From the NCBI RefSeq assembly GCF_021028975.2, contig NC_059425.1:55862001-55926000 (forward strand): a DNA stretch of 64,000 bases, in the 5' to 3' direction. Both the position numbers and the translations under genes were made by a program. Positions 9,595 through 48,863 of the stretch are shown in pieces. Position 1 is the first letter of the stretch. Each line of letters begins with the position of its first letter. This DNA comes from Sphaerodactylus townsendi (lineage: Eukaryota). The notes beneath the pieces were generated by a model. The model saw only the letters and a list, made by a program, of their open reading frames with translations. It was not told where the DNA came from and ran no database searches.

Positions 9595-10196
9595 CAGCCA
9601 CCTGCCAGCAGATTTGCCATTCTGCCCGGTAGTGCCCCAGGGAGGACAAATCTGCCAAAGCAGGACCTCGATGCCCCCACAACTTCCTCTCTCCACCCTG
9701 GATTTGGCCGTAAGCCATACAGAATTTATCATGTCCTTTGTGGTTGGACAGGCCTTGCCAGTGCTGGTTTCTGGACCACTGGGAGGAAGAAAATGAGCCT
9801 GCCAATTTGGGTCTCCAGCTGCTAGATCTGATCAAGCTCCTTTTCTTCCACTCCCTACTTTTCTCAAGGTATACCACCACCATATCAATTCCTGGAACTC
9901 CATCTAGGTTCCTGTCAAATTTAGCATCTTTAAATATATATCTCCCTCACTCTGCAAACTGCTGCAGTGGGCTCTCATCTCTTATAAGTCAATTGAAAGC
10001 ACACACTGCTTTGGCAAACACAAGACACTGAGCAAGGGTGAAAGAAATTAGAGTAAATTCACATTCTCTTTCTCTGGCACTATAGGTACTTCTTAAGGTA
10101 TGGAGTAAATGACGCTTATTCATTTTAATTTCTTTTGGGACACTCCCCCTCCCATAATCTACCAACCCTACTATTACCAAAGGTATCTGAAAAAGA

Positions 10197-10528
10197 GTGT
10201 TGTGGGTTTTATGGTCTATATGGGCGTGTTCCAGTAGCATTTTCTCTTGACATTTCGCCTGCATCTGTGGCTGGCATCTTCAGAGGATCTGCATGTCCAA
10301 TTGTGGACATGCAGCAATATCCATTCTCAAAGCCTCTCATGCCTCATCAGCTGTTTTGCATGCCTTCCCAAGCTCCACACAGCAAGGAGAATTGCCATCA
10401 GGTCCTCTGAAGATTCCACCCATAGATGCAGGCGAAACATCAGGCGAAAATACTACTGGAACACGCCCATACAGCCTGGAAAACCCACAACATCCTAGTG
10501 ATTCCAGCCATGAAACCCTTAGACAATA
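10197..10528. mobile_element. Penelope-like element fragments in inverted orientation, each with a hammerhead-ribozyme core
   Basis: 10197-10291 is an inverted copy of 10399-10495. Both carry CTGAAGA-stem-GAAA-N-RTC. The right copy ends GTGATTCCAGCCATGAAACCCTTAGACAATA, like recalled squamate Penelope ends. Confidence 0.75.
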
Positions 10529-11028
10529 TCTGAAAAAGCTTTGAGTCCAGTAGAACCTTTAAGTTTTGTAAAACTTTGTTGGTCTTAAAGAGCCACTAGA
10601 CTGGAAACCTTTTTCTGCTGTTTCAGACCAACACAACTAATCACCTGATCCCTACTGAAAATATGCGTAAAAATGTTTTATTCAACTAGCTCCAGTGTTT
10701 CTGCCTCACCAGTTGAGTGTGATGCCTCCCTGTCTTTTTGTAGTGTTTCTATGATATTGAGTGGCTCTGCACCTTAACTTCTTTTACAGTTGTGAATTTT
10801 ACAGCTTTACTTCTTCAGACAAGCAGAGCTTTGCACAGCCTCTGTGTGTACAGAGCAAGGTTATAAATTTAGATACCAAACTCCAGTGGTGGAAGACATT
10901 TTACCATGCCACAGCCTTACTACTTTGCTATCCAGGTGAAGGAAATAGCTGCCATTTTGGTCTGTGCATTTCATCAGGCCTGCAGCTACAGTAGCTAGAG
11001 CAAATGAGTTCTTTCATTTTCTTTCCAG

Positions 11029-11090
11029 AGTGGCAAGCTCACTCCAATGCTGTTTTTGATCTGACCTGGGTGCCCAGAGAACACAAAATT
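11029..11090 (+). CDS. DTL: DTL coding exon 4
   Basis: EWQAHSNAVFDLTWVPREHKI. Acceptor TTCCAG, donor GTAAGT, 62 nt. Confidence 0.96.
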
Positions 11091-11459
11091 GTAAGTAGCT
11101 TTAGAACTATCTGTTAATCTATTGATTCTTTTCATTAAATATAGTAACAGAGGTTAGACTGGAGTTATCCCCTTTTGTACTTTGGCAAGACCACTAGTAG
11201 CTCTAATATGTTAACAACAGGAGAAGTTTAGATTTGAATCTTAAGACTGTCTTTGAGTACGTTATGAGAGCAATGATCTTACATCTTCGTAACTCACTTA
11301 TACACCTGGCACTACCTCAGTTTCTTTCATGTGTTTCGACCATACTTTGGTCTACTGAAGCTCATAGTACAGTAAGCTAGTTACAAAAGTGCCAGTGGAA
11401 CTTTTTTTACCACTTCTCCCACAAAAAACAAACTCTCTTTTGCATTTATTTCCCTGAAG

Positions 11460-11580
11460 GTTACTGTTTCAGGAGATCAAACAGCTAAAGTATGGGATGC
11501 AAGGACTGCTGAGCTCCTTGGAGTGTGTCGAGGACATCAGTGCAGCCTCAAGTCTGTTGCTTTTTCCAAATTTGAGAGTG
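11460..11580 (+). CDS. DTL: DTL coding exon 5
   Basis: VTVSGDQTAKVWDARTAELLGVCRGHQCSLKSVAFSKFES, WD40 sequence. Acceptor GAAG, donor GTAAGT, 121 nt. Confidence 0.96.
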
Positions 11581-12773
11581 GTAAGTATTAGTATTTATAC
11601 TTCAGTTTGTTCTTCAGGGAACACCACTGTATACTATGTAAGTTGAAACAGTCTCTTGCCACAACCTTACTACTTTGCTATCCAGGTGAAGGAAATAGCT
11701 GTATCTTCTGTACATTTCTTTTTGCATCCCTGATCCCCAATGGATAGGTTCTGCTCTGGATTCAACATTCTTCCAGTTTCATACATGGCTGTCCAGTTTT
11801 TTTATCTATTTCCTATATGAGATTGATAGGTACACCAGAACACAGTACACCCGCTTTTCCTAATGCTCAGTAGCCAATTGTGGACATGCAGCAGTATCTA
11901 TGCTCAGAGCCTCTCATTCCTCATCAGCTGTTTTGCAGGCCTTCCCAAGCTCCTCACAGCGAGGAGAATTGTCAATGCAACTCCCTCACCAGTACCTTTG
12001 AATAGATCAGTTTTAATTAAAACATTAGAGTGAATGTTGGCTAAACGGTTTTTGTGATGGAATGTGTTTATGAAAGAATTGAATGGGAATATAAACGTGG
12101 CTGTTTGAAACATTATAAAATGTGGAATGCAACATTACCTAAACCCCCTAAAATTTCTCCTCTTGTTTCATTCTTTCCTTTGTGTAACGATAACACTGAG
12201 CAGGTTGATTCAGATCACCTCATGCTTGCAAGTCACATGTGGATGCTTATTCTGATCCCTGTTGGTATAGATGGAAGTACAGAGATCAGCAGCGCCAACT
12301 CAGTTTATTTGAACTAACCCCTTGTTTGTGCAACAGCGTATATGAAGCAAGTGTCTAGTAAAAGAAATAAAAACCAAACAGCACTTCCACAAACAACTGG
12401 CAATGCTGCAAACTGAACTAAAATAACAGCAGCTTAAGCAGCCAACTAAAATACAAAAGTCTTCCTCTGGTATTAGAAGATATTCAGAGAGAGGGAGAAT
12501 ATTTCAAACCCCAGGGGCAGTTCTTTTAAAAAGCTATTTTTGTTTCAATACCCCACCACCTGACATTCAGAAGTGAAGTGAGTAGATGCAAAGAAGAGTG
12601 TGTAGCCTAGGCAGGATACTTGAGGGGAATGGCTTAGTGCTCTGTCATAAAACCAGTTATGGAGGAGGCATGTTGCATATTCAAATGATGGTCTTAAAGC
12701 AGCAAAAGGGATTCTGGAAAATATGATGCCACGGTGTGCTGTTGGTTTAATTCTTATTGGATGTATTTTACAG

Positions 12774-43312: not shown

Positions 43313-44569
43313 CAAGGACGTAGGTAAGGGGGGGGGGGTCCTCGGGTTCAACCCCCCCCATTCATGTCCAAAGCTCCGCCCCTCCGTTTGTGGGTTTAAA
43401 AAACATTTTAGTGTTTTTTTCTGTTTTTGGCCTGTTTTTTCTGTTTTGGGGGGCGCATTGTTTAGGCTAGCAGCACCAAACTTTCAGGGATTGTTTGGGG
43501 GACTCTCCTGATGATACTACCCCGGTTTGGTGAGGTTTGGTTCAGGGGGTCCAAAGTTATGGACTCCCAAAGGGGGTGCCCCCATCCTCCATTGTTTCCA
43601 ATGGGAGCTAATAGAAGATGGGGGCTACACCTGAACCAGACTTCACCAAACCTGGATGGTATCATTAGGAGAGTCTCCTAAAGATACCCTGAAATTTTGG
43701 TGCACCTCTGACAGCAGGCACCCCCCAAATTTCCCCAGATTCTCCTTTTAAATCCATCTCCTTCGGCATGGATTTAAAGAGAGAATCTGAGGTCCTCAGT
43801 TTAGAAGAAGAAGAAGATTTTGGATTTATATCCCCCCTTTCTCTCCTGTAGGAGACTCAAAGGAGCTTACAATCTCCTTGCCCTTCCCCCCTCACAAACA
43901 CCCTGTGAGATGGGTGGGGCTGAGAGAACTCCAAAAAGCTGTGACTAGCCCAAGGTCACCCAGCTGGCGTGTGTGGGAGTGCACAGGCTAATCTGAATTC
44001 CCCAGATAAGCCTCCACAGCTCAAGTGGCAGAGCAGGGAATCAAACCCGATTCCTCCAGATTAGAACGCACCTGCTCTTAACCACTACGCCACATTGAAG
44101 TGATGCTGTTTCAGGGTGGGGGATAATCCACCCCAAAACAGCATAACTTTCAATGTTGTTTAACTAGGGACCCCAGATTCTCCCTTTACGGTGGATTTAA
44201 ACGGAGAATTTGGGCTCTCTAGTTTCAACACCATTGAAAGTGATGCTGTTTGGGGGTGGATTCCAGCATCACAATGGCTGCGGGGGCGGGGGGGGGCGCT
44301 CAGATTTTGCACCGGGCTCCATTTTTTCTCTGTCTCTGCCCAGAGGGGAGGGCAGAAGGAACTGCCGGCTGGGAGCCCAGCTGGTGGGGGGCAGGGGGGG
44401 CAGGGGAGGGCAGGGCAGGGGAGTCTGCGGTCCCCAGCCTCGGAGAGCTGCTTTTATAAGCGCTAGGCCAGGGGCGGGGCTTGGAGAGGCGTGGCCATGT
44501 CCTATGGGCGGATGGGGTATGGCCCACCCAACCCCCCCCCCCCCTAAAAAATCTATACCTACATCCCTG
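43313..44569. mobile_element. Non-autonomous hAT-type element with a nested SINE
   Basis: TIRs CAAGGACGTAGGTA / TACCTACATCCCTG. Exact 8-bp TSD AATCTCAG at 43305-43312 and 44570-44577. Confidence 0.9.
43803..44092 (-). mobile_element. Young tRNA-derived SINE (Squam3-like) nested in the hAT element
   Basis: Reverse complement of the 45573 SINE, with a (CTT)n tail. Confidence 0.88.
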
Positions 44570-45572
44570 AATCTCAGCCTTAAGCTATTTCAGCTTGGTG
44601 TCAGGATAAAGTATGAAAAGCAGTATGCATGTTGTGCTGAGAAAGGGCAGGATTGATGGTTCAAACTTGCCTCAGTATGGCAAATTGTTGGGACAGCTTT
44701 GATGCCCATTTCTATGAGTAAATCTGCTCTCTTGTATTGAATATCAAGAGGGCCTATGGCATCCAGTCTTTGAAGGTATGTAAATCTGAGCAACAAAAGA
44801 TCAGGGTCAGGTATAACTCAGTCCTTTACTATAAGGATTTTCCTTAACTGTTTTTGTGCATGCTATTTTAATTTTGACCTGCTGGGACTAGCACCAGGCC
44901 TTCTTTTAAAGTATGGTGCAGCAGGTTTATACTGTATATCTTCTCCACATATATGACTTCAAGCAGCTATGTTTTGTTGAAAGGGAATAAGGAAATATTG
45001 CCACACTTCTAAGAAACTCCCATCCTAAATTATCTAAACATAATACTTATTCCTTGTTTCAGATTTCTGCAATCCTAATCTTATTACATTGCTTATTAGA
45101 TGTCTCTTTATCTATTGATTAAATTGATTTACATCATGTAGTTGACCTTGAGTCTCAGTGAGAAAGGAAGAACTGTAAATAAAATCAATCTGAAATAGGC
45201 ATATGTTGCTATAATTCATTATGTTATTATCTGGAAAATCCTGGTCTGAGTCCTCATTGTGTCATGGAAGTTTGCTGGGTGCCCTTGGGCCGGTCACATT
45301 ATCAGGGTTGTTTTGAGGATAAAATGGAGGAGGAAAGAGCAAAGTAACAGAAAAAAGACAGGATATAAATAAAGTAAATAATTAACAAAACAGCTGCTCT
45401 AGGGGCCTACTGTCTATCTGATGTGGGCAAGGGGATTTTCTGCCCATAGACCAGCTTTCAAACAGCCCCCACTTTTAAACAAAATAAAAGATCTCTGAAG
45501 ATCTAAATAAAAGAAATGATCAAGCATAAGTTCTTTAAAGCTAGGAGAAGGTTGTTAATCAGGGCAAATAAA

Positions 45573-45870
45573 GGAGCAGCAATGGCGTAGGAGGTTAAGA
45601 GCTTGTGTATCTAATCTGGAGGAACCGGGTTTGATTCCCAGCTCTGCCGCCTGAGCTGTGGAGGCTTATCTGGGGAATTCAGATTAGCCTGTACACTCCC
45701 ACACACGCCAGCTGGGTGACCTTGGGCTAGTCACAGCTTCTTGGAGCTCTCCCAGCCCCACCCACCTCACAGGGTGTTTGTTGTGAGGGGGGAAGGACAA
45801 GGAGATTGTAAGCCCCTTTGAGTCTCCTACAGGAGAGAAAGGGGGGATATAAATCCAAACTCTTCTTCTT
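45573..45870 (+). mobile_element. Young tRNA-derived SINE (Squam3-like)
   Basis: A box TGGCGTAGGAGG, B box GGTTTGATTCC, CORE-like GGGTGACCTTGGGCTAGTCAC, tail AAATCCAAACTCTTCTTCTT. Confidence 0.88.
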
Positions 45871-46589
45871 TCCCAATGTAAGTTAAAACAATTTATGCTA
45901 GAGCAAAAATAAGTAAAAGAATCCAAAATCCAGCAGTGCATAATGTCCCTCCAAGTACAGCAGTATGTGTGTGGTATTTCTGAATTGAGGCAATCTTACA
46001 TGAACCCATGAAGCTGCCTTATACTGAATCAGACAATTGGTCCCCCAAGGTGAGTACTTAAACTGGTTGTGGTCTCAGGTGGAGGTCTTTCATAACACCC
46101 ACAACTTAAAATCCTTTCACTAGAGACGCAATAGACAGAACCTTGGACCTTCTGCATACAAGGCAGGTGCTCTACCATTGAGCCACAACCCCTCCCAACA
46201 TCTCCTTTGAGGAATGTAGTCCCACCAGCCTGGGGAGAACACCTTGTGAACAAATCCATATAGCTCCCCCCCCCCCACCTCTTGCACTATTTACATGTTC
46301 CATAATTTCTGCAAAACCTGTAGGACCAGGTTCATTCACTGCTGGCAGTGAAGTTTTACACTCTGTTTAACAATCATTTGACTACGACTGCAAATTCAAT
46401 ATTGCTGATCACACATAAGTTCTTTAAAGCTAGGAGAAGGTTGTTAATCAGGGCAAATAAAGAATAATAGGGTTATTGTGACCTGAAGCACAAAAAGACA
46501 GGGCTCCAGAGGCAGTTGTATTTGGATGGCAGGTGGAATGTGAGTGTGTTGAGTCAGTGTGGTGCAGTATAAAGCATATGGGACTCAAG

Positions 46590-47105
46590 TAATACTCCCC
46601 TCGGACACACGATCCGCTCAGTGGTCATGTTCTTCCTTGTCCTGACTGGTGTGTTTTAAATTTTTTCATGGCAGCCACATGGTGACATCACTATGTCACA
46701 ATGTGGTGCCGCCGGGCATTTTCATTGGCTATTGGGTCAGAGCGGGAACATTACTCTGCTACTGATTAATAATTCATAATTCTTATTTTTGCTTTAACAT
46801 TCCAACGTGGGTACCTATGAACAATATTTGCTGAACGTCTGGACATGTGCACGTTTACACATCCGCTTGTGCCCACGTGTCCACATGTCCTAGTTTCCAC
46901 GTGGCTACGGCCAGCACGGCAAAAAAAAAAAGGCTGCGCGCGCATCGCACACAGCTCACTGCGGGCTGATTGGCTGGAAAGCTGGCGCATCACTCCCAAC
47001 GGCGCGAAAACAAACACACATTCGACTCCTGTCCCTCCCCTTGGATATGAGTTCGGTGTGTGTTTTTTCAAGTCCAGGAAAAACCCGTGATGAGGGGTGG
47101 AATTA
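46590..47105. mobile_element. CpG-rich non-autonomous DNA element (possibly Crypton-like) interrupting an old SINE
   Basis: Imperfect terminal inverted ends TAATACTCCCCTC / GAGGGGTGGAATTA. CpG-rich interior. Old SINE halves at about 46551-46589 and 47245-47380. Confidence 0.45.
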
Positions 47106-48071
47106 GCAACAGAACCAGGATGAAGACGGGTTCGGCATGTAAGTGGTGGGGAGCCCTTGCTCCAACTGTGTATTTTGGTGTGAATAGCACACTTTTATTG
47201 ACGGTGGGGATTCGGCTGGACAGGACCAAATGGAGGAGGAGAAAATACTGACTTTGGATCAGTCATACATGTTCAACCTTATCTCACAGCATTGTTGTGA
47301 GGATACAATGGAGAAAAGGAAAATATTGTAAGTCCCCTTGGGTTCCCATTGGTGGGGTATAAATAAATACATAAATACATACTTGGAGGGTTGGTAGGAC
47401 AAAAATGGATTATTTTTCTTTACCTACCTCTACAGAAGGAATTGTAGATGCAGAAATTCCCTCTTTTTCTATATAAAAGGGACAGTAGGGATTCAAACCT
47501 GGATCTTCCCAGTCCAATGCCCCCAAGCCCGCTTTACTACACTCACGGGCTTTTGCTTTTCTACTTCAACCCTCCTCTCCAGAACTATTTGTGTCCAGAA
47601 AAAGCAGCTATTTCAATAGATGTGTTTGTGCAAGTCTAACATGTAGTTTGGCATTGCTCTTCAGCGTTAAAACAGTTCCTTTGACATTTGACCTAGAACT
47701 TTTGGAATTATGCTGTTTATTCAATTTATCATGTGTGTTAAAACATTCCCAGTACTAAATATAGGCTGGCATAATAAAAGCTACACTATTGAAAAGAGGA
47801 TGCATTTGTGCCTTGGACTACGTTAATTTGTTTCCTCAGCTTTCATATTTGGTTGAGAATTATACCAATTTTTTACTTTTGAGCAACACCCAAGCAGACA
47901 TATGTAAGCATTACTTAGTCCATTTATTATCCTAGCCTCCCTCTAAGAAGCTTAGAATAGCTCCATCAATCTCCCCTCCTCCATTTTGCCCCCAAAGCAA
48001 ACCTGTGAAAAAGGTTAGACTGAGAATATGTGACCAGCTCAAGGTCTCACAGCAAATTTCATGGTAAAGCA

Positions 48072-48863
48072 AGTGATGCTGGAATCCACTCCAAAACAGC
48101 ATCATTTTCAATGGTGTTTAAACTAGGGAGCCCAGATTCTCCTTTTAAATCCACCTTAAAGGGAGAATCTGGGATCCCCAGTTTAAACAACATTGAAAGT
48201 GATGCTATTTTGGGGTTGATTCTCCCCCACCCTGAAACAGCATCACTTTCAATGTTTAAACTGGGGACCTCAGATTCTCCCTTTAAATCCATGCCGAAGG
48301 GGGTGGATTTAATAATAATAATAACCTTTATTAGGCATTGAGAGAATAAAAGAAAGAAAACAAGTACTTTACAGCAGGGAAGGGGGGGGATTTAAAAGGG
48401 AGAGATCTATACAAAATTTAGAGGGGTGCCTGCTAACGTCAGAAAGTGCAATTATTAAGATAGCAGCACCAAAATTTCAGAGTATCTTTAGGAGATACTC
48501 CTGATGATTTCATCCAAGTTTGGTGATGTTTGGTTCGGAGGGTCCAAAGTTATGGACCCTCAAAGGTGTAGCTCCCATCTCCTATTAGCTCCCATTGGAA
48601 ACAATGGGGGATGGCGGCACTCCCTTTGGGAGTCCATAACTTTGGACTCCCTGAACCAAACCTCACCAAACCTTGGGTGGTATCATCAGTAGAGTCTCCC
48701 AACAAATCCCTGAAATTTTGGTGCTGCTAGCCTGCAGGCCAAAAATGGAAAAAACACTAAAAATACCAAAACAACACAAACAAACCTGCATTTTTGGTGC
48801 CAGCCATAAGGGAGGCACCTGGGGGCAAATGGCCTCCTTTGTCCATAGGCAGATACGTCACTG
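48072..48863. mobile_element. Truncated non-autonomous hAT-type element sharing internal modules with 43313-44569 (inverted)
   Basis: Reverse-complement match to 43460-44270. Right end GATACGTCACTG is TIR-like. Confidence 0.75.

What the first reader, a model, noticed from the sequence alone, without database searches (positions are those of the whole stretch)
10197..11974. Inverted Penelope/hammerhead structure whose spacer copies nearby intron DNA and starts with a perfect fold-back hairpin
Seen: two inverted Penelope-like arms (10197-10291 and 10399-10528) enclose a 101-bp spacer (10297-10397) that matches 11874-11974 in the same orientation, with 9 mismatches by eye. At the left junction is a perfect 11-bp hairpin CTGCATGTCCA-ATTG-TGGACATGCAG (10289-10314). 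The distal copy has only the 3-bp seed CCA-ATTG-TGG. Established: Penelope-like elements often carry inverted terminal copies, and how these form is not well resolved. Inference: this may record the mechanism. Local host sequence was copied, its end folded back and self-primed for about 8 nt, then switched template to the element at a CTG/CAG microhomology.
Basis: partly seen in the sequence, partly recalled or inferred. Interest (0 to 1): 0.72.

Follow-up and report, generated by a model that had tools for sequence, protein, structure and literature searches.

The report
Penelope insertions copy neighbouring DNA
An old jumping-gene insertion carries, between its two mirror-image halves, a 101-base copy of intron DNA from about 1.5 kb away, and 17 other copies in this genome carry similar local patches, likely left when the two halves were stitched together during insertion; the small hairpin beside it is real but uncommon in the family.

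Summary
Observation confirmed. A 331-bp insertion (10196-10526, 12-bp target-site duplication) in an intron of a DTL-like gene has two head-to-head Penelope-like arms, a 101-nt spacer 91% identical to 11874-11974 (found nowhere else in the genome) and a perfect 11-bp junction hairpin. [quoted passage not shown] Local spacers recur: 17 other insertions carry 27-251 nt copied from up to 3.1 kb away, on either side and strand (2 of 49 in an unselected sample). The hairpin does not generalise: 1 of 44 junctions at local-donor loci. Best model (inferred): twin priming on one RNA from two start sites; the cDNA ends are then joined by microhomology template switching that sometimes copies nearby DNA, here with a short snap-back. 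So the hairpin records the joining step, not the origin of the inverted arm. Similar patches are known for L1, ZfL2 and R2, and this scan noted single Penelope cases in three other genomes. Side finding: two insertions carry host exons cut exactly at their 5' splice site and joined to the element's AG acceptor-like site. New variant of a known kind.

The parts
10184..10195 (+). left copy of the 12-bp target-site duplication
   Evidence: 25 of 34 clear duplications in the family are 12-13 bp
10196..10291 (-). tail-less inverted arm (element sense on the minus strand): decayed hammerhead region, outer end at the internal AC-rich site, inner end at the CAG of the acceptor-like site
10289..10314 (.). 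perfect 11-bp hairpin with 4-nt loop; 10289-10291 shared with the element, 10292-10296 new, 10297-10314 from the donor
10297..10397 (+). 101-nt spacer copied from 11874-11974 (9 mismatches)
10395..10526 (+). tail-bearing arm: 7 nt of upstream pLTR ending in CAG (2-3 nt shared with the spacer end), decayed hammerhead core at about 10403-10445, and a tail of about 34 nt
   Evidence: hammerhead core read by eye against the recalled minimal type I motif
10527..10538 (+). right copy of the target-site duplication
11874..11974 (+). donor: unique intron DNA 1,348 nt beyond the right end of the insertion, with only a 3-bp hairpin seed
11460..11580 (+). host exon, WD40 repeat matching human Denticleless (DTL) residues 114-152; a second exon lies at about 11030-11090, so the donor is two introns downstream of the insertion
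   Evidence: (E 9.8e-17; designed WD40 repeat proteins scored higher by summed repeats)

Best explanation
This is a dead, 5'-truncated insertion of an endonuclease-bearing Penelope-like retrotransposon whose two arms enclose a copy of nearby intron DNA, likely added when two cDNAs primed from opposite sides of one staggered cut were joined by microhomology template switching. Steps: (1) a staggered cut gives the 12-bp duplication (shown). (2) Both ends prime on one RNA, one at the tail end and one about 34 nt inside (arm geometry and a shared rare variant shown; twin priming inferred). (3) Both cDNAs stop just past the hammerhead; being the same sense, they cannot pair except through microhomology (inferred). 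(4) One free end pairs over 2-3 nt with DNA 1.35 kb away and copies 101 nt (copy shown; timing inferred). (5) It falls off, folds back on a 3-bp seed, extends 8 nt and ends in CAG, which pairs with the CTG end of the other cDNA before fill-in (inferred, about 0.6 for this exact route). Whether the polymerase is the element's RT or a host end-joining polymerase such as Pol theta is open.
For: The duplication encloses arms and spacer. Both arms share a C at arm position 68 that 0 of 186 other fetched arms have. Arm ends are fixed: 91-95 nt in 32 of 34 and 117-130 nt in 27 of 34. This fits the two RT start sites reported for the anole element (PMC11167929). In at least six insertions both arms run into the same foreign sequence through the same joint (L080, L081, L098, L102, L105, L107), as twin priming on one RNA predicts. 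Local donors of 25 nt or more that beat all other loci's flanks occur in 16 of 61 picked loci including this one and in 2 of 49 unselected loci. They lie on both sides (10 of 22 on the tail side) and both strands (17 of 22 direct). L208 has patches from both sides of one insertion. Repeated re-priming patches are common. Young insertions with intact arms have 100% identical donors (L119, L126; also L197, L208), so copying is at or near insertion.
Against: No empty site was seen, so the pre-insertion state is inferred from the duplication. Junction hairpins are rare. Arm and spacer divergence do not correlate across 16 loci (rho 0.31, p 0.24; four arm values are distorted by indels or truncation). 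Here arm-arm difference (about 15%) exceeds spacer-donor difference (9%), which leaves room for later addition. The element's next bases differ from the new 5 nt by only one insertion and one deletion, so the hairpin could have been perfected later. No enzyme was tested.
Confidence: 0.7

Rival explanations
1. Repair after insertion: the element first formed a near-perfect palindrome that later broke at its centre and was mended by host repair, which copied local DNA with a fold-back.
For: Fold-back and distant templated insertions form at breaks without any retroelement (PMC11724301 abstract). Arm-arm difference here (14.8%) exceeds spacer-donor difference (8.9%).
Against: In ten young loci spacers differ from donors more than arm age predicts (48 of 1,260 against 16 of 1,500 per lineage), whereas later addition predicts less. 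Target-site duplications and outer arm ends are intact.
Confidence: 0.15
2. One reading: fold-back self-priming is how the inverted arm itself is made, by one continuous synthesis that copies back through the element.
For: Self-priming was proposed for palindromic Penelope junctions (PMC3846280 passages). L106 has a local patch followed by an inverted copy of its own junction running into the arm, and L101 has a 10-bp junction hairpin. The shared rare variant fits this too.
Against: Copy-back gives no reason for the inverted arm to end at 91-95 nt in 32 of 34 cases, flush with a target-site duplication. 43 of 44 local-donor junction windows have no stem of 7 bp or more.
Confidence: 0.08
3. The RT jumped from element RNA onto the host gene's unspliced pre-mRNA, so the template for this spacer was RNA.
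For: The donor lies in the same gene, in the sense that the tail-side cDNA would need. Penelope elements can carry intron-containing host sequence (PMC3846280).
Against: Donors across the family lie on both sides and both strands, and L208 uses both sides at once. Transcription of the other loci was not checked.
Confidence: 0.05
4. The spacer copy is real, but the hairpin is chance or a later quasi-palindrome correction of an imperfect junction.
For: Only 5 nt are new; the element's own continuation is two indels away; the locus was picked for its hairpin.
Against: Background for an 11-bp stem is 0.2% per 40-nt window. Stems of 10 bp or more occur in 4 of 49 unselected middles against 0.83 expected, though two of the four are only symmetric element sequence. 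This rival concerns the hairpin only and is compatible with the best explanation's steps 1-4.
Confidence: 0.25

Closest known systems
Inverted-pLTR plus tail insertions of endonuclease-bearing Penelope-like elements, Penelope/Poseidon type (PMC8557442, PMC3846280 passages; PMC11167929 main text)
   Same: Head-to-head arms, a 30-40 nt tail on one arm, a hammerhead-type motif, a target-site duplication, and RT with a C-terminal GIY-YIG. Palindromic junctions and captured host spacers are described in rotifer copies.
   Different: In the passages read, captured host DNA is not traced to a local donor and no genome-wide count of such spacers is given. Twin priming is not named for these elements in search.
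L1 twin priming and templated insertions (10.1101/2024.08.27.596794 and PMC11702581, passages)
   Same: Two primers on one RNA, an inversion junction with microhomology, and copied genomic patches under about 250 bp.
   Different: L1 templates typically lie within 15 bp of the site. Both arms start at fixed sites and cover the same sequence.
Snap-back and extra-nucleotide 5' junctions of R2 and zebrafish ZfL2 (PMC11331408, PMC4760211, passages); fold-back and templated insertions at double-strand breaks (PMC11724301, abstract)
   Same: A cDNA or break end primes on itself or on nearby DNA before joining.
   Different: There the joint is between cDNA and target, or between break ends. Here it is between two cDNAs in the middle of the insert.

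Membership tests
Endonuclease-bearing Penelope-like element (Penelope/Poseidon type) | RT open reading frame that begins in the hammerhead region of the pLTR | tested here: met
   In L207 an arm 84.5% identical to the window's right arm runs into a 740-aa frame with RVT_1 (E 1.5e-11). The window copy itself has no ORF.
Endonuclease-bearing Penelope-like element (Penelope/Poseidon type) | C-terminal GIY-YIG with two cysteines between the motifs | tested here: met
   The motif is read in a shifted frame at L207:7219-7392. The Pfam GIY-YIG genome search gave 3 hits, none near an arm.
Endonuclease-bearing Penelope-like element (Penelope/Poseidon type) | Inverted 5'-truncated copy plus a 30-40 nt tail on one end, with target-site duplication | tested here: met
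Endonuclease-bearing Penelope-like element (Penelope/Poseidon type) | Hammerhead ribozyme in the pLTR | tested here: inconclusive
   The core motif is recognisable by eye (recalled consensus). There is no Rfam hit, folding is no better than shuffles, and both copies are mutated.
Poseidon clade specifically | RT phylogeny grouping with Poseidon | not tested
   No tree was built; only the arm layout was compared with PMC11167929.
Twin-primed insertion (L1 sense) | Both arms copied from one RNA, with target-site duplication and internal microhomology | tested here: met
   Shared rare variant, 0 of 186 other arms; duplication; 2-3 nt microhomologies. Later gene conversion between arms is not excluded.
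Pol theta-mediated end joining | Genetic dependence on POLQ | not testable with these tools
   The sequence signature (short microhomology, repeated patches) fits; kb-scale donor distances are unusual for it (recalled).
Non-LTR retrozyme or self-spreading hairpin element | The same unit, spacer included, present in many copies or tandem arrays | tested here: not met
   The spacer has two places in the genome.

The most novel reading that the evidence does not exclude
Penelope's inverted structure comes from twin priming at two fixed sites, and the open joint between the two cDNAs routinely samples chromosomal DNA up to several kb away on either strand, with error-prone synthesis. In addition, the AG just upstream of the hammerhead is a working splice acceptor that takes host first exons, possibly in trans, so that host exons are retrotransposed as mirror-image inserts and can be mobilised again. 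That would give one mechanism for the unexplained inverted arms and for host-sequence capture by these elements.
Probability: 0.3. Interest if true: 0.75.

Novelty: new variant of a known kind. Interest (0 to 1): 0.5.

Why it matters
How Penelope-like elements make their inverted arms is described as undefined (PMC8557442). This genome holds thousands of short twin-arm insertions (2,776 for one exact pattern), many young, whose junctions record each event. They make the question testable by sequence alone, separating arm formation (fixed ends, one RNA) from end joining (variable, sometimes local DNA, rarely a hairpin). The locus itself is an old intronic scar with no sign of function.

Tried and rejected
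Spacer as family or repeat sequence: rejected. Assembly artefact: rejected. A polarity rule (donor always on the tail side, direct), suggested by the first 20 loci, failed with more loci: 10 of 22 on the tail side. Junction hairpins as a family-wide feature: not supported. Correlation of arm age with spacer age: uninformative. Empty site: not seen in four runs, whose tables were cut; it remains open. Rows dropped before counting local donors: L082 (tandem element copies); L122, L067, L104, L115, L120 (other repeats that match other loci about as well or better); L076 and L128 (20-nt hits not beating other loci); L204 and L207 (element-derived). L100 is a repeat but was kept, because its local copy is 95% identical against 88% elsewhere. 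Exon capture: L102's source is the end of a common repeat and L080's match stops 2 nt short of a GT, so neither is counted; L098 and L105 were not searched. No acceptor-bearing element copy was found 30-40 kb downstream of the three source exons, which does not settle cis against trans splicing.

Full report
The observation. The 11-bp hairpin is one of two perfect stems of 10 bp or more in the window. A 12-bp target-site duplication at 10184-10195 and 10527-10538 defines a 331-bp insertion that holds both arms and the spacer but not the distal copy, which is therefore the donor. The spacer has only these two places in the genome. Independent contigs cover the junctions: one run over 10272-10440 with no difference, and one with another organism label over 10265-10444 with one difference. 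No empty site was seen. The host is a DTL-like WD40 gene on the plus strand, and the donor lies two introns downstream.

The element. The right arm had 3,588 first-look candidates in the genome. In L207 a related arm (84.5%) runs into a 740-aa frame with an RT domain, followed in a shifted frame by a GIY-YIG motif with two cysteines. It is therefore an endonuclease-bearing Penelope-like element; the Poseidon clade was not tested by tree. Rfam finds no hammerhead in the window arms, which are decayed: 9 of 129 and 12 of 95 differences from the majority of 29 copies. One exact pattern finds 2,776 twin-arm structures with 30-160 nt middles, most of the 50 listed with element-derived middles. Among 61 fetched loci, 34 have an exact duplication of 10 bp or more, 25 of them 12-13 bp. 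The tail-less arm is 91-95 nt in 32 of these and the tailed arm 117-130 nt in 27. This matches the two neighbouring RT start sites and extension of both strands reported in vitro for the anole element (PMC11167929, parts 1-2 of 4 read). Both window arms share a variant absent from 186 other fetched arms (some loci overlap), so they come from one template.

Junctions here. Family copies continue upstream of the arm with a pyrimidine-rich stretch ending in CAG. The right arm keeps 7 nt of it, of which 2-3 are shared with the spacer end. The left arm keeps 3 nt, which are also the outer 3 bp of the hairpin. Only 5 nt are new. Read on the bottom strand, everything fits one path: tail-side cDNA, switch to the donor, 101 nt copied, fold-back on a 3-bp seed, 8 nt added, pairing with the other cDNA. 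The seed is not in the predicted fold of the nascent end, so it would need a polymerase that tolerates very short primers. A top-strand path with an inter-strand switch has the same number of switches and gives the same letters.

Do local spacers recur? Yes. Patterns that exclude normal element continuation found 78, 111, 73 and 44 places (50, 50, 50 and all 44 listed). I picked 60 non-element-looking places by eye from these and, fetched 10 kb around each, and compared each spacer with its own flanks and with all others as a control. Fifteen of the 60, plus this locus, have a local donor of 27-251 nt at 90-100% identity that beats every other locus; six more have 16-24 nt donors. Dropped rows are listed under Tried and rejected. 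The median distance is 0.8 kb (18 bp to 3.1 kb for the long set); 17 of 22 are direct (p = 0.017) and 10 of 22 lie on the tail side. For a frequency I fetched the first 49 distinct places of an unfiltered pattern with 745 matches (plus L098). Two of 49 have a clear local donor (L197, 183 nt, 100%, inverted, 1.5 kb; L208, 70 and 28 nt from opposite sides), and two apparent ones were element sequence. That suggests roughly 30 in this class, with wide error. In all, 17 loci besides the window have donors of 25 nt or more.

Do hairpins recur? Seldom. In 40-nt junction windows, stems of 9 bp or more occur in 3 of 122 (this locus, L069, L101) against 0.46% in 6,100 flank windows; without this locus p = 0.11. 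At local-donor loci it is 1 of 44. In the unselected 49 middles, 4 have stems of 10 bp or more against 0.83 expected, but two are symmetric element sequence. L106 is a second good fold-back case, with a longer loop. Direct re-priming patches and short sense copies of the arm are much commoner. Fold-back is thus one minor outcome of a general template-switching step.

Timing and fidelity. Young insertions with unmutated arms can have 100% identical donors, so copying is at or near insertion. Over ten young loci spacers differ from donors at 48 of 1,260 positions, against about 27 expected from arm divergence (16 of 1,500 per lineage). This argues against late addition and may point to error-prone synthesis, allelic differences or arm homogenisation; it is unexplained. 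At this locus the arms are more diverged than the spacer (14.8% against 8.9%), which is inconclusive.

Side finding. In at least six insertions both arms run into the same foreign sequence, joined exactly after the element's CAG. For L081 the source is the first coding exon of a DEAD-box helicase gene (DDX19-like, name recalled; motifs found) on another contig. For L107 it is an exon on another contig. Both matches stop exactly at a GT splice donor. The L107 chimera was inserted at least twice with different breakpoints. L080 stops 2 nt short of a GT, and L102 is a repeat end; 2 of 4 tested are clean. No element arm lies in the first 10 kb of the helicase gene, and only a different subfamily's arm at 12 kb, so cis versus trans splicing is open. 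These cases support twin priming on one RNA and suggest why arms so often stop at this point.

Comparison with print. Inverted arms and tails are standard for these elements and their origin is called undefined (PMC8557442, passages). Self-priming and host-DNA capture were proposed for rotifer copies (PMC3846280, passages). Twin priming with templated genomic patches is known for L1, typically under 250 bp and within 15 bp of the site (10.1101/2024.08.27.596794, passages; PMC11702581, passages). Snap-back and flank-templated junctions are known for R2 and ZfL2 (PMC11331408, PMC4760211, passages), and fold-backs at plain breaks in yeast (PMC11724301, abstract). The retrozyme preprint's passages did not cover this (10.64898/2026.07.22.740005). 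Eight searches showed no survey of local spacers or splice-site exon capture in Penelope elements. The library lacks most subscription papers, and no supplements were read. This scan's own notes report single such cases in three other genomes (unchecked AI notes, not used as support).

Verdict. The feature is real and belongs to a recurrent minority class of junctions. New variant of a known kind; interest 0.5, carried by the family-wide pattern and the exon capture rather than by this locus.

Noticed in passing
L081 (G000:C8:60928569-60928691), source G000:C16:22735873-22735947; L107 (G000:C9:72714690-72714833), source G000:C3:98371235-98371310: Host exons ending exactly at a GT splice donor are joined to the element right after its CAG and inserted as mirror-image twin arms. 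The L107 chimera occurs again at C9:74018854 with other breakpoints. L098 and L105 have the same anatomy and were not traced.
   Followed up: partly
L110 and L111 (G000:C11:63125685 and C11:63987696): The same 83-nt spacer with the same breakpoints in two insertions 862 kb apart with different target-site duplications. The donor is local only to L111, so L110 looks like a daughter copy that carried the captured DNA along.
   Followed up: partly
window 10907-10951 and 11657-11701: A second local duplication in the same gene: 45 nt, 98% identical, 750 nt apart in neighbouring introns, with no element nearby and no Rfam match.
   Followed up: no
ten young loci (L064, L065, L071, L073, L078, L100, L111, L112, L119, L126): Spacers differ from their donors about 1.8 times more than arm divergence predicts; L065 has 8 differences in 115 nt with unmutated arms.
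   Followed up: partly
L130 and L131 (G000:C1:2040338 and C1:92703113): Two distant insertions share a 30-nt non-element spacer sequence of unknown origin.
   Followed up: no
L207:5157-7552 (G000:C1 near 151.24 Mb): A nearly full-length copy of the element with RT and a frameshifted GIY-YIG, ending in a long C-rich array.
   Followed up: partly
window 43460-48730: A cluster of nested palindromic (MITE-like) repeats, including a long hairpin at 48080-48224 that gives spurious microRNA matches.
   Followed up: no
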